DNA from: Thermoanaerobaculia bacterium
GTDB lineage: Bacteria; Acidobacteriota; Thermoanaerobaculia; Multivoradales; UBA5704
Reading direction: 5' to 3'
Length of the DNA: 64,000 nucleotides
Assembly (NCBI GenBank): GCA_036399915.1
Contig: DASWME010000219.1
Coordinates: 343-64,342 of the forward strand
Made by a program: the position numbers and the translations under genes. The notes below the pieces were generated by a model. The model saw only the letters and a program-made list of their open reading frames with translations, was not told the origin of the DNA and ran no database searches. This document shows, one piece after another, positions 210-17,972 of this stretch. Positions within the stretch are counted from its first letter, which is position 1. Each line of letters begins with the position of its first letter.

Positions 210-1589
210 TCAGGAGGGAGGCGTGAACCGCAGCTCAGGATTCTCGCGTGCCTGCTTCAGGAATCCCGAGACCTTACGGACGAGCTCGAGCTCCACCTGG
301 TCCAGGCGGGCGGCGGTGCAGAAGGCCAGGAGAGCCGCCATGGCCTCCCGATGGGTGTTGTGAGCCTGGAACACGGTGAGCGTCTCCTCGGCGACACGGC
401 GTACGTCGGCGCTCCGCCCTTGCAGGATATAGACGCCAGCCAGGTCGAGGGAAGCCAGTGCGGCGTCGTATCCGAGGCCCAGTTCGACGAAGCCCTCCCG
501 GACCTCCCGGAAGGCCGCCTCGGCCTGCTCGATCCGCTGCAGCGCGAAAGCCACGAGACCTTCCAGCCAGCGAAGCTTCAGGAGGTTCATGCGCCCGCCC
601 GCCTTCAGATAGAGAGGCCGGGTGTGGAAGAGCAGGGCGAAGGCCTCGCGCGACCGGCCGCTCTCGTTGAGCGCGTTGATCAGGTTGTGCCGGGCGGCGA
701 GGAACACCCGCGGGTCGCGCTGAGGGTCGATCAGATCGAGCGCCCGCCGCAGCAGCCTGATCGCGCCCTCAAGGTCCCCGGCCACGGTGCAGACCATCGC
801 CTTCTGGAGGAGCGTCCGCCCGAGAAGGCTCCACTGTCCCAAGGTCTTGTAGAGAACGGCGACGCGGTCGAAAAGCTGGAAGGCTTCGTCGAACCTGTGT
901 TGCTCCCTGCGCAGGGACGCCAGCAGGGCGAGCACCCGCGCCCGGTCGAGGAGGCCGATGCAACCCTCCTCCAGCAGGGATTCGGCGACGGCGAACGCCC
1001 TCTCGGCGCTGGCATGGTCTGAATTGACGCGGAAGGCGTTGCCGAGATGAGCCCAGGCCCTCGCCCGCAGGCTGTCCAGCGGCTCCTCGCCGCCGCAGTC
1101 CTCCTTCTCCAGGCGGTCCGCCACCAGCGTGCCGAGATGGGCGGCTTCGATCGACCGGCGGGGATCCTCGAACCCGGTCTCGTGGCTCTCCTCGATGAGC
1201 CGCTCGCAGAGCATCCGGTTGCGGAAGCGATGGCTGTTGCTCACCAGGAGGTGCCGGCGCTCCGCCGGGACTTGCATCAACTCCGCGAAGAGCTCGCAGC
1301 CTGCCGCCCGCTGCTCGGCCACGGCCGCTTCCGCGGATACCACCCGCGCGAAGACCCGGTCCAAGACCTCGTCGTAGCCGTCCCGGGCATTCTCCTCCCC
1401 TGCCGCTTCCAGGGCGCGGTCCAGCGGATCGTCGAGCTCGTCGCCAGGCTCCCAGAGGGTGGCCGTGGCCTCATGGCACTGTCGGCAGCCGGTCAGCAGG
1501 TGCCGTGCGATCTCCCGCATCTCCGGTGCGGAGAGCTGTCCCAGCACGAACCGCTCCAGGGCCTCTGGCGCCGGATGGATCTCAGTCAT
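210..1589 (-). CDS. soluble anti-sigma-factor-like protein: N-terminal ZAS-type zinc finger (H-x3-C-x2-C) plus long TPR-like helical-repeat domain
   Basis: 459-aa ORF with N-terminus ...IARHLLTGCRQCHE.... No hydrophobic TM segment seen. Its start overlaps the stop of the upstream sigma gene by 8 nt (1582-1589). Full-length paralog of 3247-4584. Confidence 0.7.
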   Translation of the reverse strand: MTEIHPAPEALERFVLGQLSAPEMREIARHLLTGCRQCHEATATLWEPGDELDDPLDRALEAAGEENARDGYDEVLDRVFARVVSAEAAVAEQRAAGCELFAELMQVPAERRHLLVSNSHRFRNRMLCERLIEESHETGFEDPRRSIEAAHLGTLVADRLEKEDCGGEEPLDSLRARAWAHLGNAFRVNSDHASAERAFAVAESLLEEGCIGLLDRARVLALLASLRREQHRFDEAFQLFDRVAVLYKTLGQWSLLGRTLLQKAMVCTVAGDLEGAIRLLRRALDLIDPQRDPRVFLAARHNLINALNESGRSREAFALLFHTRPLYLKAGGRMNLLKLRWLEGLVAFALQRIEQAEAAFREVREGFVELGLGYDAALASLDLAGVYILQGRSADVRRVAEETLTVFQAHNTHREAMAALLAFCTAARLDQVELELVRKVSGFLKQARENPELRFTPPS

Positions 1590-2118
1590 TGCCGGTCTTC
1601 TTCCTGCCGAACCCCGACAGCGTCAGATACCGCGTCAGGGCGTCGATACACCTCGTCGTGATCTTGCTGATGCTGGCAGGGCTGTAGCCCAGCCGCTCCG
1701 CCAGCTCCGGAGGCTCGTACCCCTGGCGATAGCGCAGCGACAGCAGAGAACGGCAGCGCTCCGGCAGGCGCTCCAGGGCGCTCGCCAGATCGCGGCGCAG
1801 AGTGGTCTCTTCCTGAGCCGGCGCGAGCGGCTCGGCCACGTCCTCAAGAACCGCGGAATCGACGGAGTCATACAGCTTGCGCCGCTGCTCTCTCCAGTAC
1901 AGCAGGCACTTGTTGCGCAGGGTCCCGAGCAGCCAGGCTTCCGGATCCCGGATCTCCTGGGATTGATACACGAGGGCGAGCAGGGCCTGCTGCAGGATGT
2001 CCTCCGTGTCCTGGGGAGGAATGCGATAGTGCGCGAACAAGGCCTTGAGACGAGGCCGGACCCTCCTCAGAAAGCCTTCGAGCGATGCCTCGACTTGCGG
2101 TTGGTCCAGTGCACTCAT
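1582..2118 (-). CDS. ECF-type RNA polymerase sigma factor (paralog 1)
   Basis: 178 aa. Region-2-like DTEDILQQALLALV...EAWLLGTLRNKCLLYWR and region-4 HTH LPERCRSLLSLRYRQGYEPPELAERLGYSPASISKITTRC. Translationally coupled to 210-1589. Confidence 0.85.
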   Translation of the reverse strand: MSALDQPQVEASLEGFLRRVRPRLKALFAHYRIPPQDTEDILQQALLALVYQSQEIRDPEAWLLGTLRNKCLLYWREQRRKLYDSVDSAVLEDVAEPLAPAQEETTLRRDLASALERLPERCRSLLSLRYRQGYEPPELAERLGYSPASISKITTRCIDALTRYLTLSGFGRKKTGND

Positions 2119-2240
2119 GGTCCCGGGGAGCGCCTCTTCTAAATTTCAGGATACACTACCACTATCCCGGAAGCGTGTCCAGTCAGGAGGGACCGGAAAA
2201 CCTGGCCGCCGCAGCCGGCCGAGGCTTGGCTCCCGAGGAG

Positions 2241-2459
2241 CTAGGAATTGCCCTCAGGATCGATCATCACGCCGGCCTTCTCGAGGACGGCGATCAGGAG
2301 CCTCCAGGGGGAGAAGGACTCAAACCTGCTGGATACGTCGCGGCCCTTCCGCCCTGAGCGGTCTCGTGGCTCCGCGCTTACGCTCCGCACGGGGAGCAGC
2401 GCGAGGACGGACACCAGTGCGGTGGAGGCGAGGGCGCGGCGAAGCTTGGGCTGGAACAT
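2241..2459 (-). CDS. small secreted peptide (72 aa, predicted signal peptide), unknown function
   Basis: MFQPKLRRALASTALVSVLALLPVRSVSA|EP... has n-h-c signal-peptide architecture. A strong SD AAGGAG lies 7 nt upstream of the ATG (reverse complement of 2460-2480 reads cgatcctgaaaggagattgcg). Sits between sigma paralogs 2 and 1. Confidence 0.5.
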   Translation of the reverse strand: MFQPKLRRALASTALVSVLALLPVRSVSAEPRDRSGRKGRDVSSRFESFSPWRLLIAVLEKAGVMIDPEGNS

Positions 2460-2621
2460 CGCAATCTCCTTTCAGGATCGTCTGCTTGGCGGAACGGCCA
2501 TAGGCCTCTTGAAGGCTCCTACAGAACAGTTACCGCAGGAGAGCCTCCGGGGGACACGAAACCTGAAGGGAGAAGCCGACTCGCTCCGCGGACGCCCAGG
2601 CCGATGGACGGCGGGACGGGC

Positions 2622-3149
2622 TCAGGGCTCAGGCTGGAATCCGGCCCCGAGAAGCTGCTCCGTCAGGGCTGCCAGGCAACGACGGGTGACTTTCCGGATG
2701 CTGGACTTGCAATAGCCTGTCCTCTCCGCCGCCTCGGCGGTGCTGCAGCCGAACCCATAGCGGAGACGGAGCACGGAACGGCAGCGGTCGGGCAGGCGCG
2801 AGAGCAGGGTGTCGAGGTCGTAGCGCAGATCCGCCTTCTCCTGCGGCGGCGCTTCCACGTCGGCCAGCAGCTCGAGGATGGCGCTGTCGACCAGGTCCCA
2901 CAGCCGGCTGCGGTGCTTGCGCCAGTAGAGGATGCAGCGGTTGGCCAGGGTCCCGAGCAGCCAGGCCTCGGGATTCCGGATGCTCCCCCACTTGGAGATC
3001 ATGATGAGAAAGGTGTCCTGTAGCAGGTCGTCCACATCCTGCGCGGGGATCCTGTAGCGGCTGAGGACCCTCTTCAGCCTGGGCTCCATCCTCTCCAGGA
3101 CGTCTTCGAGAGAAGGCTCCGCCAGATCCGGGGGGACCGAAGGTTTCAT
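2622..3149 (-). CDS. ECF-type RNA polymerase sigma factor (paralog 2, no adjacent anti-sigma gene)
   Basis: 175 aa. DVDDLLQDTFLIMI...EAWLLGTLANRCILYWRKHR and LPDRCRSVLRLRYGFGCSTAEAAERTGYCKSSIRKVTRRC. Clearly homologous to 1582-2118 and 4577-5131. Confidence 0.85.
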   Translation of the reverse strand: MKPSVPPDLAEPSLEDVLERMEPRLKRVLSRYRIPAQDVDDLLQDTFLIMISKWGSIRNPEAWLLGTLANRCILYWRKHRSRLWDLVDSAILELLADVEAPPQEKADLRYDLDTLLSRLPDRCRSVLRLRYGFGCSTAEAAERTGYCKSSIRKVTRRCLAALTEQLLGAGFQPEP

Positions 3150-3246
3150 TGCAGTAGCTAAATGTAACGAGGGCTTAATCTAGCAGCATTCCCGCCCTTT
3201 GTCCAGCAAGGACGGCTCGCGCGAGGTTTCCCGGGCCAGGAGGGCT

Positions 3247-4584
3247 TCAGCGGGGTTCCCGGAAGCGGAGCCCCAAGTCGGCGCGCGAGTCCTTGAGATA
3301 GCCGCTCACTTCCCGGATCAGGCCGAGGGTGACGCGCTCCATCTGTGCCGCTTTCTGGAACAGGAGCAGCGCGGCGATGGCCTCGCGGCGGATGTCCAGG
3401 GACTTGAAGATGGAGAGCATCTCCCCGGCCAGGCGGCGCATCTCGGCGCTCCGGCCCTGCTGGGCGTAGCTGTCGGCCAGGTCGAGGGAAAGCAGGGCGG
3501 CGTCGTACTCGAGCTCGCGCTCGATCAGCTCCTGGCGCACGTCCCGCAGGATCTCCTCGGCCTCGGCGAACCGCTTGAGGGAAATGGCGATCTTCCCCTC
3601 CAGCCAATGCAGGCGCAGCAGGCTCATCCGGTCTCCGACCTGGTGGTAGAGGGGCCGCGCGCGCTCCAGGAGGCGCATGGCCTCGTCGCTCTGCCCGCTC
3701 TCGAACAGGAAGAGGATCAGGTTGTGCTGGGCCGCGACCAGGAGGCGCGGATCGGAGGACGGGTCCAGCTTCCGGATCCCTTCCGTCAGGCAGGGGATCG
3801 CCGCCTCCTGATCGTTGGCAATCCCGAGGAGGAAGCCCCGCATGATGAGAGCCCTGCCGCAGAGCTGGGGATCGTCCAGCCTGCGGCCGATCGCGAGGGC
3901 CCGGTCGAGCAGCCGGAGGGATTCCCGGAAGCGCTGCTGATTGCCCAGCAGGGAGGACTTGAGGAGGAGGACGTGGGCCTTCTCCACCGGATCTCCAGTC
4001 CCCTTCTTGAGCAGCCGCTCGGCCCTGGCGAAGCTCTCCTCGGCGTTGCGGAAGTCCGAGCGGATGCGCTGCGCGTTGGCCAGGCCCGCCCAGGCTCGCG
4101 CGACCAGGTCGTTCACCCGCGACTCTCCATAGGCGGCGGGGTCGAGCCGCGCCGCGACCTCCACGCCCAGCTTCGCGAGCTCGAGGGCCCGCGCCGGATC
4201 CTGGAAGCCCCGCTCGCGGGCCGCCTCCAAGAGCAGCTCGCAGAAGCCCCAGGAGCGATACCGGGAGCTGCCGGTCGCCAGGATCCGCTGCTGCTCGCAC
4301 GGCTGGGCCAGCAGCTCGCGCAGCAACCCGGGCGCCGCCGTCCGCTCGGCGGCGAGGTCGGCCTGCCGGCGCTCGGTCTCCCGCCAGGCCCGCACGAAGG
4401 CCCTGCCGTAGTCGAGCCATCCCGCGTCGCCTCCCACCCGGGCCGGGGGGAGATAGCGCGAGGCGATCCGGCAGCAGTGCCCGCAACGCGCGAGGAGGTG
4501 ACGGACGATCTCGCGGTTGCGGCGACGGGAGAGCCGTCCGCGCGCGAACATCGAGAGGAGGACCGGATCGGAGTGCTTATCCAT
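3247..4584 (-). CDS. soluble anti-sigma-factor-like protein (ZAS-type zinc finger plus TPR-like domain), paralog of 210-1589
   Basis: The track ORF 3247-4797 is trimmed to the ATG at 4584 (MDKHSDPVLLSMFARGRLS...VRHLLARCGHCCR). This start reproduces the same 8-nt overlap with the upstream sigma stop (4577-4584) seen in the other pair. The C-terminus ...YLKDSRADLGLRFREPR parallels ...FLKQARENPELRFTPPS. Confidence 0.7.
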   Translation of the reverse strand: MDKHSDPVLLSMFARGRLSRRRNREIVRHLLARCGHCCRIASRYLPPARVGGDAGWLDYGRAFVRAWRETERRQADLAAERTAAPGLLRELLAQPCEQQRILATGSSRYRSWGFCELLLEAARERGFQDPARALELAKLGVEVAARLDPAAYGESRVNDLVARAWAGLANAQRIRSDFRNAEESFARAERLLKKGTGDPVEKAHVLLLKSSLLGNQQRFRESLRLLDRALAIGRRLDDPQLCGRALIMRGFLLGIANDQEAAIPCLTEGIRKLDPSSDPRLLVAAQHNLILFLFESGQSDEAMRLLERARPLYHQVGDRMSLLRLHWLEGKIAISLKRFAEAEEILRDVRQELIERELEYDAALLSLDLADSYAQQGRSAEMRRLAGEMLSIFKSLDIRREAIAALLLFQKAAQMERVTLGLIREVSGYLKDSRADLGLRFREPR

Positions 4585-5131
4585 CCTGCGGTTCGCCTTC
4601 GGGCTCGCGTTCGAAGCCGACAGCCAGGAGCTGCCGGGTGAGTGCCGCGAGACAACGGTTGGTGACTTTGCGGATGCTGGAGGTGCGGTAGCCCATCTGC
4701 TCCGCCACCTCGGTGGGCCCGTAGCCCAGGCCGTACCGCAGCTTGAGGAGCGAGCGGCAGCGGGTCGAGAGACGGGACAGCACCCGGTTGAGGTCACAGG
4801 TCAGCTCGGCCTTCTCCTGATCCGGCGCCTGCGGGGTCGCGAGCAGGTCCAGGATGGCCGTGTCGACGGATTCGCAGAGGCTGCCCCGGCGCTTGCGCCA
4901 GTACATGATGCACTTCTTCTTGACAGTGCCGACCAGCCAGCTCTCGGGGCTGCGGATCTTGTCCCACTTGTAGAGCAGGGTGAGCTGCGCATCCTGGAGG
5001 ATGTCCTCCGCATCCTCTGGAGGGATCTCGAAGTTCCTGAGCACGCGCTCCAGCCGAGGGCGCGAGTTCCTCAGCAGAAGGTTGAGTGATTCCCGCAGTT
5101 CAGGATGGTCGAGAGTTGCCATAGAAATCAT
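4577..5131 (-). CDS. ECF-type RNA polymerase sigma factor (paralog 3)
   Basis: 184 aa. DAEDILQDAQLTLLYKW...ESWLVGTVKKKCIMYWRKRR and LSTRCRSLLKLRYGLGYGPTEVAEQMGYRTSSIRKVTNRC. Confidence 0.85.
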   Translation of the reverse strand: MISMATLDHPELRESLNLLLRNSRPRLERVLRNFEIPPEDAEDILQDAQLTLLYKWDKIRSPESWLVGTVKKKCIMYWRKRRGSLCESVDTAILDLLATPQAPDQEKAELTCDLNRVLSRLSTRCRSLLKLRYGLGYGPTEVAEQMGYRTSSIRKVTNRCLAALTRQLLAVGFEREPEGEPQDG

Positions 5132-9705: not shown

Positions 9706-10482
9706 GTGATCACCAGCCGCCAAAATCAAAGGCTCAAGGATATTCGGCGGCTCCGGCGAAGGCAAGGCGAGCGCGCTCTGCTCGAAGGCCCCCACCTGGT
9801 GGAGGAAGCCCTCGCCGCCGGCCTCGCCCTGGAGGAGGTCCTGGCGACCCCGCCCTTCCTCGACTCGGCCGACGGGCGGCGGCTCGCCCGCTCCCTGCCG
9901 CGCCCGCCGCTCGAGGTGAGCCCGGACCTGCTCGCGGACCTCACCGACGCTGACTCCCCCCGCGGCGTCCTCGCCGTGGCCCTCCTCCCCCGCTCCGGCG
10001 TCGAGGCCCTGCCCGTCCGTCCGGGCCGACCCTACCTCTATCTGGACGGTCTCCAGGACCCGGGCAATCTCGGGGCCCTGGCCCGCGTGGCCGAGGCCGC
10101 CGGCGCCGCCGGGCTCGCCCTCTCCCCCGGCTGCGCCCACCCGAACCATCCGCGCGCCCTCCGCGCCTCGGCCGGCAGCCTCCTGCGCCTGCCCGTCGCC
10201 GTGAACGCCGACCCCGACGCCCTCGACCGCCATCTCGCCCCAACCCGCCCCCGCTGGACCGCCCTCGTGCCGCGCGACGGCGAGAACTTCTACCACGCTT
10301 CCCTCGCCGGCACCCTGATCCTCGCCGTGGGAGCCGAAGGCCCCGGCCTCTCCCCTCCTCTCCTCGCCCACGCCAGCCTGCGCCTGACCATCACCATGGA
10401 GCCGGCGGTCGAATCCCTCAACGCCACGGTGGCGGCGGCGCTGGTATTGTTCGAGGCCAGGAGACAGCGGGAAAACCCCTGA
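9706..10482 (+). CDS. TrmH/SpoU-family RNA 2'-O-methyltransferase
   Basis: GTG start. ITSRQNQRLKDIRRL... N-terminus, then LDGLQDPGNLGALARVAEAAGAAGL, LILAVGAEGPGLS and ESLNATVAAALVLFE (SpoU methylase motifs). Confidence 0.85.
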   Translation: MITSRQNQRLKDIRRLRRRQGERALLEGPHLVEEALAAGLALEEVLATPPFLDSADGRRLARSLPRPPLEVSPDLLADLTDADSPRGVLAVALLPRSGVEALPVRPGRPYLYLDGLQDPGNLGALARVAEAAGAAGLALSPGCAHPNHPRALRASAGSLLRLPVAVNADPDALDRHLAPTRPRWTALVPRDGENFYHASLAGTLILAVGAEGPGLSPPLLAHASLRLTITMEPAVESLNATVAAALVLFEARRQRENP

Positions 10483-10521
10483 AGGCGAAAGCGGGACGGT
10501 GAAAACCGCCCAAAAACTCCT

Positions 10522-10565
10522 CACACATTGTTTTTTCCCAAAAAACAATGTGTGGGTGGTTTTTT
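10522..10565 (+). terminator. candidate intrinsic terminator downstream of the TrmH-family gene (also the first element of the AT-rich repeat array)
   Basis: Perfect 15-bp inverted repeat CACACATTGTTTTTT-ccc-AAAAAACAATGTGTG (10522-10554), followed 5 nt later by TTTTTT (10560-10565). The stem is AU-rich, so the terminator role is uncertain. Confidence 0.35.
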
Positions 10566-10672
10566 ACATTGTTTTTTCCGTTCAAACAATGTTTGAGGGG
10601 AAGAAACAATGTGTTGGACCCAAAAAACAATGTTTGACGGCTTCAAATAATGTGTGACGGGAAAAACAATGT
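10522..10672. repeat. AT-rich array of 8 copies of the 9-mer AAACAATGT (6 direct, 2 inverted) phased at about 20 bp
   Basis: Inverted ACATTGTTT at 10525 and 10566. Direct AAACAATGT at 10543, 10584, 10604, 10625 and 10664, plus AAATAATGT at 10645. Spacings are 18, 23, 18, 20, 21, 20 and 19 bp. The direct copies extend to about 20-bp units (AAACAATGTKTGACGG-like). Confidence 0.9.
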
Positions 10673-10876
10673 TCTACGGGATTTCCAGTGTGAGAGGAGC
10701 CTGGAGACCGGGATTCGGCGGGATGGGGAGTTCGGCGCGGCTGCCCAGTGTTCAAGAGAATTCGAGGGCAGTAGAGCGTCCTTTCCGGCGCAAAACGGAG
10801 GGGCGGGCTTGTCCCCGCCCCCGCCCGGAGGGCGACGTTTCGCTGATAGGCTGAAGAGACTTCCAAGGAGACTCCC

Positions 10877-13272
10877 CTGGCCGACTCCTTCGACGTCTTC
10901 CTGAGCCACAACAGCAAGGACAAGCCGGCCGTCCGCCGGATCGCGGAGGCGTTGCGGGACCGGGGACTGCGCGTCTGGCTCGACGAGTGGGAGTTGATCC
11001 CGGGGCGCCGCTGGATTCCTGAGCTGGAGAAGGTCATTGAGACCACGAGGACGGCTGTGGTCCTGGTCGGAGAGAGTGGCTTCGGGCGATGGGAACAGCC
11101 CGAGTATGAGGCTTCTCTCTCGGAGTTCGTTGAGCGTGGCCTCCCTGTCATCCCCGTTCTGTTGCCCGGCGCGCCGGCCAAGCCCAAGGTCCCGCTCTTC
11201 CTGAAGGGCTTTACCTGGGTCGATCTCCGTGGCGGCATCACTGACGAAGGCTTGAGTCGCCTCGAATGGGGCATTACCGGCAGCAAACAGGATCGGGAGG
11301 CGAAGGTTCAGGTCTCCCAGGCCCCACGCCTCCACAACCTCCCTTTCCTCTCCATCCGCGACCTCCTGAAAGGACGGGACGAGGAACTCCAGCGCCTCCT
11401 CACCAACCTGGGAAGCTCGGCTCAGGCCACGGCGATCACCAGGCCATCCACGGCCTGGGGGGCATCGGCAAAACCCGGCTGGCCGTGGAGTATGCCTGGC
11501 GCTCGGGTAATCGGTACGATGCGGCCCTCTTCGTGACGGCGGACTCCCCCGAGGCGCTGCGGTCGGGTCTGGCGAGCCTAGCAGGGCCGCGCATCCTTGC
11601 CCTTCCCGAGTACCAGGCCGGAGCGGAGGCGGAGACCGTCGAGGCCGTCCTGCGCTGGCTCCGGGAGCATTCCCGGTGGCTGCTGATCCTGGACAACGTG
11701 GACACGGAAGAAGCCGTGTGGGCCGTCCGGGAGATCCTGCCGCAGCTTCAAAGCGGCCACATCCTCATCACCTCCCGTTGGACGGAATGGTCGGCCGGAA
11801 TCCAGGAACAGCCGCTCGGCGTCCTCTCGAGGGAAGAGGCTGCCCAGTTCCTCCTCCAGCGCACACAGAGAAAAAGAACGTCCGCACCGGATGACGCCGA
11901 GCAGGCGGGCCGTCTGGCGGACATCCTGGGCGGCCTTCCTCTGGCTCTGGAGCAGGCGGCAGCCTACATTCGCCGCCATCAGACTACCTTTGCCCGCTAT
12001 CTGGAGGATTGGGAGCGTGAGCGCGAGAAGGTTCTGGAGTGGCACGACAGAACCGTCATGGACTATCCCGCCTCCGTAGCGGCGACCTGGCAGACGACCT
12101 TCCGTCAGCTCAGCCCGAAAGCCGCCGCCCTTCTCCGTCTGACTGCCTTCCTCGCCCCGGAGCCTATCCCCGAAGCGATGTTTGAAGAGGGCGAGGGGAT
12201 CGTTGAGGAAGCGTCTGCGGCCCTCATAGAGGAAACTGATCAGCTGGCGATCGAGCGGACTGTCCGGGATGTCCTCGCGGAGCTGGCCGCCTACTCCATG
12301 GTGACCCGGTCGACCGGCAACTTTACCGTCCATCGCGTTGTGCAAGAGGTTCTCCGGACCCGAATCCCTGGCGACCGTCGCCGGGAGTGGATCGAACGTT
12401 CCGTACGTCTGGTAAACGCCTACGCGCCATTCGACGCTGACGATGTCCGTACCTGGCCTGTCTGGGACCTTCTCCGTCCCCACGCGTTGCGAATCGTTAA
12501 AGAGGCGGACGATGTTGGTATTCCTTATCCCACCGCCAGCCTCATGGGCCAGTTGGCGCTTCTCCTTTTCGAGAAGAGCCTCTACGCGGAGGCCGAGCCG
12601 TTGATGCAGCGGGCCTTACAGGTCGGAGAAGACACCCTCGGACCCAATCACCCAGCAGTCGCCATCCGCCTCAACAACCTGGCGTCGTTGCTTCAGGCCG
12701 CGAACCGTCTGTCGGAGGCCGAGCCGTTGATGCGGCGGGTGGTGGAATTCTTCGAAATCAATCTGGGTCCTAACCACCATAACCTCGCCACGGCTCTGAA
12801 CAACCTGGCTCAGTTGCTTCAGGCCACGAACCGTCTGTCGGAGGCCGAGCCGTTGATGTGGCGAGCTTTGCAGATCGACGAGGGCTCCTTCGGACCCCAG
12901 CACCCCAAAGTCGCTATCCGACTCAGCAACCTGGCAGCATTGCTTTACGCTACGAACCGTCTGTCAGAGGCCGAGCCGTTGATGCGGCGGGCCTTGCAGA
13001 TCGACGAGGACTCCTTCGGACCCCAGCACCCCAACGTCGCCAGAGACCTCAACAACCTGGCTCGGTTGCTTCAGGCCACGACCCGTCTGTCGGAGGCCGA
13101 GCCGTTGATGCGGCGGGCGGTGGAGATCTGCGAGGCCAGCCTAGGGCCGGACCACCCCAAGACGCGGATTGCGCGGAAGAACCTGGAAGCCCTCTTGGAG
13201 GAGATGGGGTTGGCAGGCTCGCAGGATAGCCAATCCACTGAGGACCCTCCCCCATCTCCCCGGACCGGGTAG
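10877..13272 (+). pseudogene. TIR - NB-ARC (STAND NTPase) - TPR protein; reading frame interrupted by an apparent 1-nt frameshift near 11440 and lacking an ATG/GTG/TTG start upstream of the TIR core
   Basis: Frame 2 encodes the TIR domain: (L)ADSFDVFLSHNSKDKPAVRRIAEALRDRGLRVWLDEWELIPG...VVLVGESGFGRWEQPEYE...VIPVLL, then ...NLPFLSIRDLLKGRDEELQRLLTNLGSSAQATAIT. Frame 1 continues with QAIHGLGGIGKTRLAVEYAW (P-loop), WLLILDNVD (Walker B), ILITSR, GGLPLALEQAAAYI (the GxPLA motif of NB-ARC) and five 42-aa TPR units. An in-frame TAG lies at 10847. AAGGAG (10865-10870) sits 6 nt before CTG 10877. Confidence 0.8.
12575..13204 (+). repeat. five tandem 126-bp (42-aa) repeats encoding the TPR array of the STAND gene
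   Basis: The core CGAACCGTCTGTCGGAGGCCGAGCCGTTGATG recurs at 12701, 12827, 12953 and 13079 (CGACCC variant), an exact 126-bp period. A partial first copy has GAGGCCGAGCCGTTGATG at 12589. Confidence 0.9.
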
Positions 13273-13308
13273 AATCCGCCGGACTCGATCTCGGGGGAGA
13301 CGCGGCCC

Positions 13309-13740
13309 ATGAAGATCGGCATCGGCTCGGACCACGCCGGATACCGCTACAAGGAAGAGATCAAGAACTATCTTGCCGGGCTCGGCCACGAGGTGCGGGA
13401 CTTCGGCACGGACTCGGAGGAGTCCGTCGATTATCCTGTCTTCATCCGGCCCGTGGCACTGGCCGTGGCGAGCGGCGAGGTCGAGCGCGGGATCGTGCTC
13501 GGCGGGTCGGGCAACGGCGAGGCCATGGTGGCCAACCGGGTGCGCGGCGTCCGCTGCGCTCTCTGCTGGAACGAGGAGTCGGCGCGGCTTGGCCGGCAGC
13601 ACAACGACGCCAACGCGATCTCCCTCGGCCAGCGGATGATGACCCTGGAGACCGCCCTCGCCATCGTGCGGATCTGGCTCGAGACCCCGTTCGAGGGCGG
13701 CCGGCACGTGCGCCGGATCCAGATGATCGACGAGCCGTGA
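13309..13740 (+). CDS. rpiB: ribose-5-phosphate isomerase B
   Basis: MKIGIGSDHAGYRYKEEIKNYLAGLGHEVRDFG...GIVLGGSGNGEAMVANRVRGVRCALC... (RpiB/LacA/LacB family). Confidence 0.92.
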   Translation: MKIGIGSDHAGYRYKEEIKNYLAGLGHEVRDFGTDSEESVDYPVFIRPVALAVASGEVERGIVLGGSGNGEAMVANRVRGVRCALCWNEESARLGRQHNDANAISLGQRMMTLETALAIVRIWLETPFEGGRHVRRIQMIDEP

Positions 13741-13786
13741 GCCCTCGCACCAAAGGAACACGCTCCGGCCAGGGCTGGCCCGCCCT

Positions 13787-13975
13787 GGAGGGGCGGAATT
13801 TGAATAGCCCGGGGCGGAAGCCCCGGGTACGGATGCCCAGACCAACCCGTCGAGCCCCGAAGGGGCGGCAGGCGCAGGTCCGGCCTCCTGATGTCGCCCT
13901 TTCAGGGCTCAACCGTGATTGTTGGCGCTCCGTTCCCGGGGCTTCCGCCCCGGGCTATTCAAATCCTGCCCCTCC
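13787..13975. repeat. REP/MITE-like element, family B: two 41-bp arms in inverted orientation around a 107-bp core
   Basis: Arm 1 (13787-13827) is GGAGGGGCGGAATTTGAATAGCCCGGGGCGGAAGCCCCGGG. Arm 2 (13935-13975) is its reverse complement with 2-3 mismatches. Each arm contains an 8-bp hairpin CCCGGGGC-GGAA-GCCCCGGG (a GNRA loop in one orientation). Confidence 0.8.
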
Positions 13976-14022
13976 GGGGCAGACCTTCACGGCTCTTCCC
14001 TTCTTTCCCGGCCTGCTCTGAC

Positions 14023-16448: not shown

Positions 16449-17972
16449 ATGCTAGCCCGTGCCACCGCAGCAACCCCATGGGGGATCGAAGCCCGTCCCG
16501 TCCAGGTGGAGGTCGACGTCCACAACGGCCTCCCGCAGGTGCAGATCGTGGGGCTCGCCGACGCCGCGGTCCGCGAGAGCCGCGAGCGGGTGCGCGCCGC
16601 GATCTGGAACTGCGGCTTCGCCCTGGAGCCCAAGTCCATCATCATCAATCTCGCGCCGGCCGACCTGCGCAAGGAGGGCAACCACCTCGACCTCGTCATC
16701 GCCCTGGCGATGCTCGTGGCCTACGAGCAACTGCCCCAGGAGGCGCTGGACGGCCGGCTGATCTGCGGCGAGCTGGGCCTGGACGGCGCCGTCCGTTCCG
16801 TGCGCGGCGGCCTCGCCATCGCCGACCTGGGATTCCGCCTCGGGATCCGCGAGGTGCTGCTGCCGGCGGCTAACGCTCCCGAGGCGGCAGCCCTGCAGGC
16901 CGTGCCGGTGGTCGGTCTGCGCGGGCTCGCCGAGGCCATCCAGCACCTGACCGGAGCCGGACCGCTGACGCCGGTCCCCGCCCGGCCTCTCTCCGCCGAC
17001 GGGGCGTCGCCCGCGCCCGACCTCGCGGAGGTGCGCGGTCAGGAGACGGCGAAGCGGGCCCTGGAGGTGGCTGCCGCGGGCGGGCACAACCTGCTTTTCC
17101 TGGGTCCGCCGGGCTCGGGAAAGACCATGCTCGCCCGCCGCCTGCCGGGCCTGCTGCCGCCGCTCACCCTGGCGGAGTCGATCGCCGTCACCAAGATCCA
17201 CTCCCTGGTGGCCGAGGAGCCGCCGGCCGGGCTCCTCCAGCAGCGGCCGTTCCGCAGCCCGCACACCGGCACCAGCACGGCGGGGATGATCGGCGGCGGC
17301 AGCAATCCACGTCCTGGCGAGGCGAGCCTGGCCCACAACGGCGTCCTCTTCCTGGATGAGCTGCCCGAGTTCCGGCGCGACACCTTGGAAGCCCTCCGCC
17401 AGCCGCTCGAGGAGGGGAACGTCAGCGTGGTGCGCGCCCGCGCCCGGCTGGTGTTCCCGGCCCGCTTCTCGCTCCTTGCCGCCATGAATCCGTGTCCGTG
17501 CGGGCATCTGGGGGACCCCCGGTACTCGTGCAGATGTCCTCCGCCGCTCATCGAGCGCTACCGCGGCCGGGTCTCGGGGCCGTTGCTCGACCGCATCGAC
17601 CTCCACGTCGAGGTGCCGGCGGTGAGCTTGAAGGAGCTGCGCTCCTCGGCGGGCGAGAGCACGGAGACGGTGGCCCGCCGGGTGGCTGCAGCCCGCACCA
17701 TCCAGCTCGACCGCTTCGGCCCCAACACGCCCACGCCCAACAACGCCACCATGGGCCCGGAGCAGCTCCGCCGGTTCTGCGCCGTCGATCCGGCGGGCCG
17801 GTCGCTGCTCGACGCCGCCTTCGAGAAGCTCGGCCTCTCCGCCCGCGCCCTCGACCGCGTCCTCAAGGTGGCCCGCACCATCGCCGACCTCGCGGGGAGC
17901 GATTCGATCCGCGCGGCGCATCTGGCGGAGGCGATCCAGTACCGGAGCCTGGACCGGAGGGTGGCGGGGTGA
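16449..17972 (+). CDS. comM: YifB/ComM-family Mg-chelatase-like AAA+ ATPase
   Basis: MLARATAATPWGIEARPVQVEVDVHNGLPQVQIVGLADAAVRESRERV...GHNLLFLGPPGSGKTMLARRL...NGVLFLDELPEF.... Confidence 0.9.
   Translation: MLARATAATPWGIEARPVQVEVDVHNGLPQVQIVGLADAAVRESRERVRAAIWNCGFALEPKSIIINLAPADLRKEGNHLDLVIALAMLVAYEQLPQEALDGRLICGELGLDGAVRSVRGGLAIADLGFRLGIREVLLPAANAPEAAALQAVPVVGLRGLAEAIQHLTGAGPLTPVPARPLSADGASPAPDLAEVRGQETAKRALEVAAAGGHNLLFLGPPGSGKTMLARRLPGLLPPLTLAESIAVTKIHSLVAEEPPAGLLQQRPFRSPHTGTSTAGMIGGGSNPRPGEASLAHNGVLFLDELPEFRRDTLEALRQPLEEGNVSVVRARARLVFPARFSLLAAMNPCPCGHLGDPRYSCRCPPPLIERYRGRVSGPLLDRIDLHVEVPAVSLKELRSSAGESTETVARRVAAARTIQLDRFGPNTPTPNNATMGPEQLRRFCAVDPAGRSLLDAAFEKLGLSARALDRVLKVARTIADLAGSDSIRAAHLAEAIQYRSLDRRVAG

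What the first reader, a model, noticed from the sequence alone, without database searches (positions are those of the whole stretch)
10877..13272. Stand-alone TIR-NB-ARC-TPR (NLR-like STAND) gene inserted between housekeeping genes: candidate single-gene defence or abortive-infection module
The domain order is directly readable. A TIR domain (FDVFLSHNSKDK...W...E) is followed by NB-ARC motifs: P-loop GLGGIGKT, Walker B LLILDNVD, ILITSR and GGLPLAL. Five 42-aa TPR units then form the putative sensor. Bacterial TIR domains are established NAD+-consuming or signal-producing immune effectors, and STAND NTPases with repeat sensors (for example the Avs systems) are established phage sensors. A TIR effector fused to an NB-ARC/TPR sensor is therefore a plausible immune protein. 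It sits alone, with lower GC than its neighbours, between trmH-like and rpiB/murB genes and behind an odd AT-rich repeat array. Two peculiarities stand out. First, no ATG, GTG or TTG lies between the in-frame TAG (10847) and the conserved TIR beta-A strand, so translation would have to start at CTG 10877, which has a perfect AAGGAG 6 nt upstream. Second, the frame breaks just before the P-loop.
Basis: partly seen in the sequence, partly recalled or inferred. Interest (0 to 1): 0.75.

Follow-up and report, generated by a model that had tools for sequence, protein, structure and literature searches.

The report
Frameshifted bacterial TIR–NB-ARC–TPR immune-receptor-like gene
This is a recently broken copy of a bacterial relative of plant and animal NLR immune receptors, from a very large, already described family, sitting in a variable insertion spot between two housekeeping genes; the gene itself is ordinary, and its CTG start codon, shared with relatives, is the most unusual feature.

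Summary
Window 10877-13272 encodes TIR (Pfam 1.4e-24), NB-ARC, DUF7779 and five 42-aa TPR units. One C is missing from a CCC run at 11439-11441, 11 nt before the P-loop.

The host is a Thermoanaerobaculia (Acidobacteriota) bacterium. In 12 related genomes the trmH-like gene and rpiB are only 17-230 nt apart. This gene is therefore an insertion in a spot that holds other accessory genes in other genomes.

An orthologous locus (L164) carries the gene intact (ATCACCCAGG versus ATCACCAGG here). Two other assemblies share the deletion, so it is probably a real and recent inactivation. All catalytic motifs survive, and dN/dS against the ortholog is 0.30.

The CTG start is not a lesion. In 20 related loci the same position, 5-9 nt after a conserved AGGAG, is CTG (12) or TTG (8). 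Eight loci, this one included, have no canonical start before the conserved first TIR strand.

The architecture is already described (Kaur et al. 2020; NCBI names it fxsT) and is very common: 4,224 50%-identity clusters at E<=1e-30. Defence by ligand-triggered oligomerisation and TIR NADase activity is inferred, not shown.

Verdict: a new, currently broken member of a known kind.

The parts
10483..13269 (+). Inserted segment between the trmH-like stop codon (10480-10482) and the conserved rpiB-proximal TAGAAT box. It holds the AT-rich array, a 160-bp spacer and the NLR-like gene.
   Evidence: In 12 related Thermoanaerobaculia genomes the trmH stop and the rpiB ATG are 17-230 nt apart. The box GTAGAATCC(G)CCG directly follows trmH there; in the window it sits at 13269-13281.
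10512..10682 (.). AT-rich array of eight ~20.5-bp units (AAAAACAATGTKTG...), the first three in alternating orientation. The first palindrome followed by a T-run looks like a terminator for the trmH-like gene. The array is associated with this locus, not with the gene family.
   Evidence: It is conserved at about 90% in the orthologous locus L164. It is absent from empty-site relatives and from all other NLR loci. No Rfam, plasmid or phage match.
10800..10821 (.). GC-rich hairpin GGGGCGGG-cttgt-CCCCGCCCC in the spacer; function unknown.
   Evidence: Read directly from the sequence. A similar hairpin is present in L164.
10844..10852 (+). TGATAGGCT, an extended -10-like element. Relatives have CTGATAAACT. 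Homology with paralogous loci begins here.
   Evidence: Conserved in 20 loci at a variable distance from the TIR anchor that does not keep the reading frame. The blastn alignment to L002 starts at 10842. The alignment with L088 is conserved only from this point on.
10865..10870 (+). Shine-Dalgarno sequence AAGGAG.
   Evidence: An AGGAG/GGAGG motif is conserved 5-9 nt upstream of the CTG/TTG codon in all 20 clade loci.
10877..10879 (+). Predicted CTG initiation codon.
   Evidence: The homologous codon is CTG in 12 loci and TTG in 8; more distant relatives have ATG or GTG there. Eight loci, this one included, have an upstream in-frame stop and no canonical start before the first TIR strand. The 21 codons downstream evolve as coding sequence, pN/pS 0.39.
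10877..11440 (+). 5' part of the coding sequence (frame 2): TIR domain (Pfam TIR_2, 10895-11260) plus the linker up to ...SSAQATAIT.
11102..11104 (+). Codon for the catalytic TIR glutamate (E76 in the motif W-E-Q-P-E).
   Evidence: It aligns with the Glu of the plant WCLDEL motif (PDB 3jrn) and with the Glu of PdTIR (3h16). It is invariant in 42 aligned relatives.
11439..11441 (+). Frameshift site. One C of an ancestral CCC run is missing (ATCACC-AGG versus ATCACCCAGG).
   Evidence: The ortholog L164 and 12 other loci read A-I-T-Q in one frame. The deletion is also present in the JGI contig L001 and the ENA contig L169.
11440..13272 (+). 3' part of the coding sequence (frame 1). NB-ARC runs from 11387 to 11991, with P-loop 11452-11475, Walker B 11680-11703, TSR 11761-11778 and GLPL 11929-11949. 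DUF7779/winged-helix region is 12097-12375, with the conserved VHR at 12325-12342. TPR units span 12532-13158. The stop codon TAG is at 13270-13272.
13270..13277 (+). TAGAATCC: the gene's stop codon overlaps the conserved -10-like box upstream of rpiB. This marks the right-hand junction.

Best explanation
Window 10877-13272 is a single-gene, NLR-like STAND receptor with the domain order TIR, NB-ARC (AP-ATPase), winged-helix/DUF7779, then five kinesin-light-chain-type TPR units. It belongs to a very large paralogous family that is expanded in Thermoanaerobaculia (Acidobacteriota). It was inserted into an accessory-gene hotspot between a trmH-like methyltransferase gene and rpiB.

Inferred mechanism of an intact copy, by analogy with plant TIR-NLRs, Apaf-1 and bacterial Avs/bNACHT proteins: the variable faces of the TPR units bind a foreign or danger-associated protein. 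This releases ADP-locked autoinhibition of the NB-ARC module, and ATP-dependent oligomerisation follows. The N-terminal TIR domains are then brought together into composite NADase sites around Glu76. NAD+ is depleted, or a nucleotide signal is made, and the infected cell stops growing or dies.

Expression appears to be kept deliberately low. The gene has an extended -10-like promoter, a short leader with a strong AGGAG, and a weak CTG initiation codon (TTG in sister genes).

In this genome the gene has very recently lost one C just upstream of the P-loop. The expected products are a 219-aa TIR fragment and no properly initiated NB-ARC-TPR part, so this copy is a young pseudogene.

Shown: domain architecture, motif integrity, insertion, the intact ortholog, the reproducible frameshift, and the conserved CTG/TTG position. 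Inferred: ligand sensing, oligomerisation, NADase activity, immune role, and use of CTG by the ribosome.
For: - Architecture: Pfam TIR_2, NB-ARC, DUF7779 and TPR_10/12. AlphaFold pLDDT 84.5. Foldseek matches to RPP1 (548 aligned columns), Apaf-1, NRC2 and CED-4, KLC TPR domains, and the Podospora NLR-type nearly identical TPRs. The nearest PDB sequences for the NB-ARC part are plant NRC4 and NRC2.
- Catalytic and nucleotide-binding residues are intact: E76, K199, D273, R301, GLPL and H486 are invariant across 42 relatives, and the window carries them all.
- No excess decay: the repaired protein departs from >=90%-conserved columns at 11 of 290 positions, against a median of 12 for intact relatives. 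dN/dS against the ortholog is 0.30 over NB-ARC-TPR.
- Insertion: 12 empty sites. The same site holds another TIR-NLR, a PemK toxin, an HTH protein, sulfatases, a Uma2 nuclease and an Rpn-like transposase in other genomes.
- Frameshift: the ortholog L164 reads ATCACCCAGG. The deletion is present in three assemblies: the window, the JGI contig (100% identical over 21.7 kb), and an ENA MEGAHIT contig that differs by 2 SNPs elsewhere.
- Start codon. In E. coli, CUG initiates at 1-2% of AUG (bioRxiv 10.1101/063800).
- Sensor-like repeats: the 42-aa units are nearly identical apart from about 10 variable positions, and copy number ranges from 2 to 13 among relatives.
- Single-gene system: neighbours differ at every homologous locus examined.
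Against: - No member of this exact family has been tested for phage defence or NADase activity, as far as the library searches showed. PADLOC has no model for the NB-ARC-TPR part and gives only weak TIR-only hits.
- The three assemblies that share the frameshift may derive from the same or closely related read sets, so a systematic sequencing error is not fully excluded.
- CTG initiation is inferred from comparative genomics only.
- The TPR ligand is unknown. Family members in Actinobacteria are linked to a peptide-processing system (FxSxx-COOH) rather than being shown to act in antiviral defence (PMC7159879).
Confidence: 0.72

Rival explanations
1. The frameshift is a sequencing or assembly artefact. 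The organism carries an intact, functional TIR-NB-ARC-TPR gene.
For: Apart from the missing base the gene is flawless. All motifs are intact and there is no excess of substitutions at conserved positions. The missing base lies in a short homopolymer (CCC to CC). The JGI and ENA contigs could be re-assemblies of the same reads.
Against: Three assemblies of different length share the deletion, and one of them differs from the window by two SNPs elsewhere. The k141 contig name suggests a short-read MEGAHIT assembly (my inference from the name), and such data rarely lose a base in a 3-base run. The large housekeeping ORFs nearby (AdoHcyase, MetK, SecA, ComM) are unbroken, so the assembly is not error-prone.
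Confidence: 0.15
2. The split gene still works. Either it acts as two polypeptides (a TIR-only protein plus an NB-ARC-TPR protein started at ATG 11266), or a programmed -1 ribosomal frameshift restores the fusion.
For: Both reading frames overlap over 11266-11536, and ATG 11266 would give a 668-aa product that keeps the P-loop. This idea rests otherwise on general knowledge: TIR-only proteins are active in plants and in some bacterial systems.
Against: There is no X XXY YYZ slippery heptamer at the only place where the frames can be joined without destroying conserved residues (GCG ATC ACC AGG). No Shine-Dalgarno sequence precedes ATG 11266. No intact relative shows a split arrangement: all 13 loci examined at this site are in one frame. 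The lesion is too young for a compensating adaptation.
Confidence: 0.04
3. The family is not an antiviral sensor. It may be a component of another conflict, signalling or self-recognition process, for example coupling to FxSxx-COOH-type modified peptides, kin discrimination or programmed cell death in aggregating bacteria. This locus would be a stray, decaying paralogue.
For: The NCBIfam equivalog FxSxx_TPR (fxsT) scores 354.5 bits against a cut-off of 300. PGAP gives that name to homologues on Streptomyces, Prosthecochloris and Acaryochloris plasmids. Kaur et al. 2020 describe the TIR-AP-ATPase-TPR protein as the effector encoded downstream of the FxSxx peptide-processing system (PMC7159879). 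Several paralogues can sit on one contig or genome, as in fungal allorecognition NLR repertoires.
Against: No radical-SAM/SPASM, metallopeptidase, vWA or MoxR gene lies within 10 kb on either side here or at the other loci examined. The hotspot and other loci carry toxin, nuclease and transposase genes of the kind found in defence islets. TPR-sensor STAND proteins are repeatedly shown to sense phage proteins (PMC13581612).
Confidence: 0.18

Closest known systems
Bacterial TIR-AP-ATPase(NB-ARC)-TPR proteins, annotated by NCBI as fxsT / 'FxSxx-COOH system tetratricopeptide repeat protein' (NF040586); described by Kaur, Burroughs, Iyer and Aravind 2020 (PMC7159879). Bacterial NB-ARC/TPR NLR-like architectures are credited to Koonin and Aravind 2002 in a bioRxiv preprint (10.1101/2020.01.06.895854).
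   Same: The domain order is the same and the HMM score is above the curated cut-off (354.5 versus 300). Homologues at 30-47% identity on plasmids carry that name.
   Different: No FxSxx precursor, radical-SAM/SPASM maturase, metallopeptidase or vWA-MoxR genes are nearby. This gene stands alone, in Acidobacteriota rather than Actinobacteria, and this copy is frameshifted.
Plant TIR-NLR resistosomes (RPP1, ROQ1)
   Same: The TIR plus NB-ARC module is shared, with Foldseek E 2.7e-11 to RPP1 7crc_B over 548 columns. The catalytic Glu sits in the same motif position. P-loop, Walker B, GLPL and a His equivalent to the MHD motif are present.
   Different: The sensor is made of TPR units rather than LRR plus C-JID. 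There is no EDS1-type downstream pathway in bacteria. Sequence identity is only about 15%.
Antiviral STAND (Avs) and bNACHT bacterial NLR-related defence proteins
   Same: All are single-gene tripartite receptors built as effector, STAND NTPase and TPR-like sensor. For Avs families, direct sensing of phage proteins and oligomerisation have been demonstrated (PMC13581612; bioRxiv 10.1101/2022.07.19.500537).
   Different: The NTPase here belongs to the NB-ARC/AP-ATPase clade, not the Avs or NACHT clades. No PADLOC Avs or NLR model matches. No experimental evidence exists for this family.
Fungal NB-ARC/TPR NLRs with nearly identical internal repeats (Podospora type; PMC4986451)
   Same: The 42-aa TPR_10/12 units are highly conserved internally, a few positions are hypervariable, and copy number varies. 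Foldseek matches the Podospora 'nearly identical TPR-like repeats' structure 4y6w.
   Different: This is a bacterial host. The N-terminal effector is a TIR domain rather than a HET, HeLo or amyloid motif.

Membership tests
NB-ARC/AP-ATPase STAND NTPase with repeat sensor (bacterial NLR-like) | NB-ARC domain with P-loop (GxGGxGKT), Walker B (LLILDNVD), sensor-1 Arg (TSR) and the GLPL motif | tested here: met
   Pfam NB-ARC E 8.8e-11. The motifs lie at 11452-11949. K199, D273, R301 and L354-L358 are invariant in 42 relatives.
NB-ARC/AP-ATPase STAND NTPase with repeat sensor (bacterial NLR-like) | Winged-helix/ARC2 region with a conserved His (MHD equivalent) that holds ADP in the resting state | tested here: inconclusive
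   DUF7779 E 2e-12. H486 in 'TVHR' is invariant. The fold superposes on Apaf-1 and NRC2. The residue-level equivalence to MHD was not checked on the superposition.
NB-ARC/AP-ATPase STAND NTPase with repeat sensor (bacterial NLR-like) | C-terminal superstructure-forming repeats | tested here: met
   TPR_12 E 1.9e-54 and TPR_10 E 9.1e-50, in five stretches. KLC-type TPR fold.
NB-ARC/AP-ATPase STAND NTPase with repeat sensor (bacterial NLR-like) | One uninterrupted reading frame joining effector, NTPase and sensor | tested here: not met
   A 1-nt deletion at 11439-11441 splits the frame. It is reproduced in two other assemblies.
Catalytic (NADase-type) TIR domain | TIR fold with the conserved catalytic glutamate after strand C (W-x-x-x-E) | tested here: met
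   TIR_2 E 1.4e-24. E76 aligns with the Glu of plant WCLDEL (3jrn) and of PdTIR (3h16). It is invariant in relatives.
Catalytic (NADase-type) TIR domain | NAD+ cleavage or signal-nucleotide production | not testable with these tools
   This needs a biochemical assay.
FxSxx-COOH system (fxsT) | Score above the curated NCBIfam equivalog cut-off | tested here: met
   NF040586 scores 354.5 bits against a cut-off of 300.
FxSxx-COOH system (fxsT) | Genomic linkage to the FxSxx precursor peptide, a radical-SAM/SPASM maturase, a zincin metallopeptidase and vWA-MoxR (VMAP) genes (PMC7159879) | tested here: not met
   The precomputed Pfam calls for all genes in window 1533-23272 show none of these. None appears at six other homologous loci.
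Avs (antiviral STAND) families in PADLOC | Match to an Avs NTPase or sensor model | tested here: not met
   PADLOC gives only TIR-region hits (PDC-S66, SAVED_TIR, ThsB; E 1e-10 to 8e-3) and nothing over residues 150-798.
Thoeris | A ThsB-type TIR protein next to a ThsA (SIR2/Macro-SLOG) effector | tested here: not met
   ThsB hits are weak (E 5e-5). No ThsA-like neighbour is present.
bNACHT / NACHT NLR-related | NACHT-clade NTPase domain | tested here: not met
   Pfam assigns NB-ARC. No NACHT hit appears at E<=0.01.

The most novel reading that the evidence does not exclude
In this Thermoanaerobaculia NLR clade the initiation codon is systematically weak: CTG in 12 and TTG in 8 of 20 loci. It always follows a strong, conserved AGGAG and an extended -10-like box. 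If ribosomes really start at CTG, this would be a rare family-wide natural use of CUG initiation in bacteria, plausibly a built-in dosage limiter for an auto-toxic immune receptor. It would also mean that standard gene callers systematically truncate these genes. Five database proteins were truncated in exactly this way.
Probability: 0.6. Interest if true: 0.45.

Novelty: new member of a known kind. Interest (0 to 1): 0.3.

Why it matters
The gene adds nothing fundamentally new. TIR-NB-ARC-TPR proteins are already described in bacteria, and the NB-ARC module alone defines more than 4,000 50%-identity clusters.

Three modest points are useful.

- Acidobacteriota of the class Thermoanaerobaculia carry a large, recombining NLR-like repertoire. 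TIR subtypes are swapped between genes and TPR copy number varies. No defence-system database model covers this family.
- The trmH-rpiB junction is a small accessory and defence hotspot, with clean empty-site controls.
- The family gives comparative evidence for CTG/TTG initiation codons. This affects annotation and hints at dosage control of toxic receptors.

The pair formed by this frameshifted copy and its intact ortholog shows how quickly such genes are lost.

Tried and rejected
- Programmed frameshifting: rejected. No slippery heptamer lies at the only permissible junction, and all 13 relatives examined at this site are in one frame.
- An N-terminal extension upstream of the CTG (some database proteins were called with long N-termini): rejected. 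The distance between the conserved TGATA box and the TIR anchor varies by non-multiples of three, and in-frame stops occur in many loci.
- The CTG as a start-codon lesion specific to this pseudogene: rejected. The intact ortholog L164 and ten other intact genes have CTG at the same position.
- Rfam scan of 10300-13500: only sub-threshold chance hits.
- Search for the AT-rich array elsewhere: no array was found in any of these.
  - Not in 1.7 Mb of fetched loci, other than copies of this same locus (L001) and its ortholog L164.
  - The viral-contig scan gave only scattered one- or two-match chance hits.
  - blastn against plasmids and phages gave no match.
- An exact-sequence look-up of the TrmH-like protein found no record.
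- PADLOC gave no system-level assignment.
- FxSxx-COOH membership was considered because of the NCBIfam hit, and rejected on genomic context.
Full report
**What is there.** The plus strand of window 10877-13272 carries one gene in two reading frames. Frame 2 runs from CTG 10877 through a TIR domain to ...SSAQATAIT. Frame 1 continues with QAIHGLGGIGKT... to TAG 13270-13272. Restoring a single C gives a 798-aa protein.

Pfam on the repaired protein finds four modules:
- TIR_2, residues 7-128, E 1.4e-24
- NB-ARC, residues 171-372, E 8.8e-11
- DUF7779, residues 408-500, E 2e-12
- TPR_12/TPR_10 in five stretches, residues 553-761, E 1.9e-54 and 9.1e-50

An AlphaFold model built on 42 sequences is confident, with mean pLDDT 84.5. 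Foldseek against the PDB returns the plant TIR-NLR RPP1 (548 aligned columns), Apaf-1, NRC2/3/4 and CED-4 for the N-terminal two thirds. For the C-terminus it returns kinesin-light-chain TPR domains and the Podospora 'nearly identical TPR-like repeats'. By sequence, the nearest solved NB-ARC modules are plant NRC4 and NRC2.

**Catalytic residues.** The TIR motif W-E-Q-P-E puts Glu76 (codon 11102-11104) opposite the glutamate of the plant WCLDEL motif (3jrn) and of PdTIR (3h16). Glu76, the P-loop Lys199, Walker-B Asp273, the TSR arginine, GLPLAL and His486 in 'TVHR' are invariant in 42 relatives and present in the window.

**The frameshift.** Thirteen related loci read A-(T/S)-A-I-T-Q...G-L-G-G-I-G-K-T in one frame. 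The orthologous locus L164 has GCGATCACCCAGGCCATC where the window has GCGATCACC-AGGCCATC, so one C of a CCC run has been lost.

The same deletion is seen in two other assemblies:
- A JGI contig (3300034402, 38.9 kb) that is 100% identical to the window over 21.7 kb.
- An ENA 'k141' contig (ERZ27253115, 37.6 kb) that differs from the window by two SNPs, at 16678 and 16694.

The window extends well beyond both contigs, which makes three assemblies in all. Nearby long housekeeping ORFs are intact. The junction has no slippery heptamer, so programmed frameshifting is unlikely.

The lesion must be very young. The repaired protein deviates from >=90%-conserved columns at 11 of 290 positions, against a median of 12 for intact relatives. 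dN/dS against the ortholog is 0.30 over NB-ARC-TPR. I conclude with about 80% confidence that this is a real, recent inactivation. An undetected systematic sequencing error remains the main alternative.

**The start codon.** Upstream of the first TIR strand the frame is closed by TAG 10847. The only NTG codon is CTG 10877, 6 nt after AAGGAG. This is a family trait, not decay.

In 20 loci of the closest clade the layout is CTGATAAACT (an extended -10-like box), about 20 nt, AGGAG/GGAGG, 5-9 nt, then CTG (12 loci) or TTG (8 loci). Three to seven codons later comes (T)FDVFLSH. More distant relatives have ATG or GTG at the same position.

Four observations support initiation at this codon:
- The distance from the TGATA box to the TIR anchor varies from 45 to 57 nt in non-multiples of three. 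In-frame stops, often inside the box itself, occur in many loci. The upstream stretch is therefore not coding.
- Eight loci, including the window and the intact ortholog L164, have no ATG, GTG or TTG between the upstream stop and the TIR strand.
- Gene callers truncated exactly these genes (P0023, P0036, P0067, P0084, P0099).
- The 21 codons after the anchor evolve as coding sequence, with pN/pS 0.39.

In E. coli, CUG initiates at 1-2% of AUG, and only two non-canonical starts are confirmed (bioRxiv 10.1101/063800). A weak start behind a strong Shine-Dalgarno sequence would keep a potentially self-toxic receptor scarce. That reading is an inference.

**Genomic setting.** The TrmH-like protein is 73-83% identical to proteins of Thermoanaerobaculia/Acidobacteriota MAGs. 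In 12 of these genomes the trmH stop and the rpiB ATG are 17-230 nt apart. A conserved -10-like box (GTAGAATCC..., CTAATAC...) lies just before rpiB. In the window 2.8 kb lie between them, and the gene's stop codon is the TAG of that very box (13270-13275).

The same junction holds other genes in other genomes:
- another TIR-NLR plus a Uma2 nuclease-like gene (L088)
- a PemK/MazF toxin (L085)
- an HTH protein (L086)
- sulfatases (L102, L106)
- in the ortholog L164, the NLR plus a Transposase_31/Rpn-like gene

So 'inserted between housekeeping genes' is correct, and the site is a small accessory and defence hotspot. The gene's GC and GC3 are lower than its neighbours'. Homologous genes elsewhere have unrelated neighbours, twice including transposases, so no conserved partner exists.

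**Family size and prior knowledge.** The word-indexed search returned more than 3,288 hits at E<=1e-20, the best intact one at 75% identity. The exhaustive search with the NB-ARC-DUF7779 part alone found 4,224 50%-identity clusters at E<=1e-30 and 15,422 at 1e-10.

NCBIfam's equivalog FxSxx_TPR (fxsT) scores above its cut-off, and PGAP gives this name to homologues on plasmids of several phyla. Kaur et al. 2020 describe the 'AP-ATPase with an N-terminal TIR domain' and C-terminal TPRs as the effector gene downstream of the FxSxx peptide-processing system (PMC7159879). A bioRxiv preprint (10.1101/2020.01.06.895854) notes bacterial NB-ARC/TPR NLR-like proteins and cites Koonin and Aravind 2002 and Urbach and Ausubel 2017.

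Here none of the FxSxx partners (radical-SAM/SPASM, metallopeptidase, vWA-MoxR) lies within 10 kb. The name therefore over-reaches for this stand-alone gene. PADLOC has no model beyond weak TIR hits.

**How it most likely works (inferred).** STAND receptors with TPR-like sensors bind a single phage protein, which relieves autoinhibition and drives oligomerisation (PMC13581612). From established knowledge of plant TNL resistosomes, oligomerisation brings the TIR domains together into NADase sites.

The TPR units here are nearly identical apart from about ten variable positions (11, 15, 19, 20, 23, 26, 27, 33, 42...). Their number ranges from 2 to 13 among relatives, which is the signature of a fast-evolving ligand-binding surface. 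With no partner gene, NAD+ depletion and growth arrest is the most economical output. None of this has been tested for this family.

**Modular evolution.** Between the window and its ortholog the flanks and the NB-ARC-TPR part are 85-92% identical at the DNA level. The TIR core (10996-11316) does not align at all, with dS 1.13 against 0.27-0.53 elsewhere. At least three TIR subtypes are combined with near-identical NB-ARC modules among close relatives.

**The AT-rich array.** Eight ~20.5-bp units at 10512-10682 contain seven exact AACAATGT copies. This 8-mer occurs nowhere else in the 64 kb. The first palindrome plus a T-run resembles a bidirectional terminator for the trmH-like gene.

The array is conserved in the orthologous locus L164. 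It is absent from empty sites, from L088 and from every other NLR locus, whose homology starts only at the CTGATA box. It has no Rfam, plasmid or phage counterpart, and a viral scan for spaced copies gave only chance hits. Its regular two-helical-turn spacing and A-tracts recall iterons or curved DNA. Its function remains unexplained, and it is not part of the gene family.

**Verdict.** The object is a new, recently broken member of a known and very common kind. The comparative evidence for CTG/TTG initiation and the clean hotspot are the only mildly novel by-products.

Noticed in passing
window 10512-10682 (also L164 1040-1200): An iteron-like AT-rich array of eight ~20.5-bp units (AAAAACAATGTKTG) with phased A-tracts, 36% GC in a 69% GC genome. 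It is conserved in the orthologous locus but found nowhere else searched. Its function is unknown; possibilities are a terminator, curved DNA, a regulator-binding array or a relic of a mobile element.
   Followed up: partly
window 10480-13310; loci L083-L106, L164: The trmH-rpiB junction is an accessory and defence gene hotspot in Thermoanaerobaculia. It is empty in 12 genomes. Elsewhere it is occupied by TIR-NLRs, a PemK toxin, an HTH protein, sulfatases, a Uma2 nuclease-like gene or a Transposase_31/Rpn-like gene.
   Followed up: yes
window 10996-11316 versus L164 1545-1859: The TIR core has been exchanged between orthologous loci whose flanks and NB-ARC-TPR parts are 85-92% identical. At least three TIR subtypes are shuffled among close relatives.
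   Followed up: partly
L164 3850-4821: The intact ortholog carries a 323-aa Transposase_31 (YhgA/Rpn-like) gene between the NLR and rpiB. The window lacks it. A remnant of the window-type NLR 3' tail lies downstream of that gene in L164.
   Followed up: partly
window 13777-13833 and 13929-13985: Two 57-nt arms form an inverted repeat (89% complementary, 95 nt apart) between rpiB and murB. It may be a MITE/REP-like palindromic element. There are only these two copies in the window.
   Followed up: partly
loci L027-L066 (for example L027 at about 640-672): More distant TIR-domain genes have a conserved GCGCTAGAAT box only about 12 nt upstream of their ATG. This suggests leaderless or near-leaderless mRNAs.
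   Followed up: no
window 210-5131 (L001 1-3599): A tandem cluster of three ECF-type sigma-70 genes, two of them each followed by a TPR_12 protein gene, lies upstream of the AdoHcyase/MetK genes.
   Followed up: no
database proteins P0023, P0036, P0067, P0084, P0099: Public gene calls for CTG-start members of this family are truncated at the N-terminus and lose the first TIR strand. This is a systematic annotation error for the clade.
   Followed up: yes
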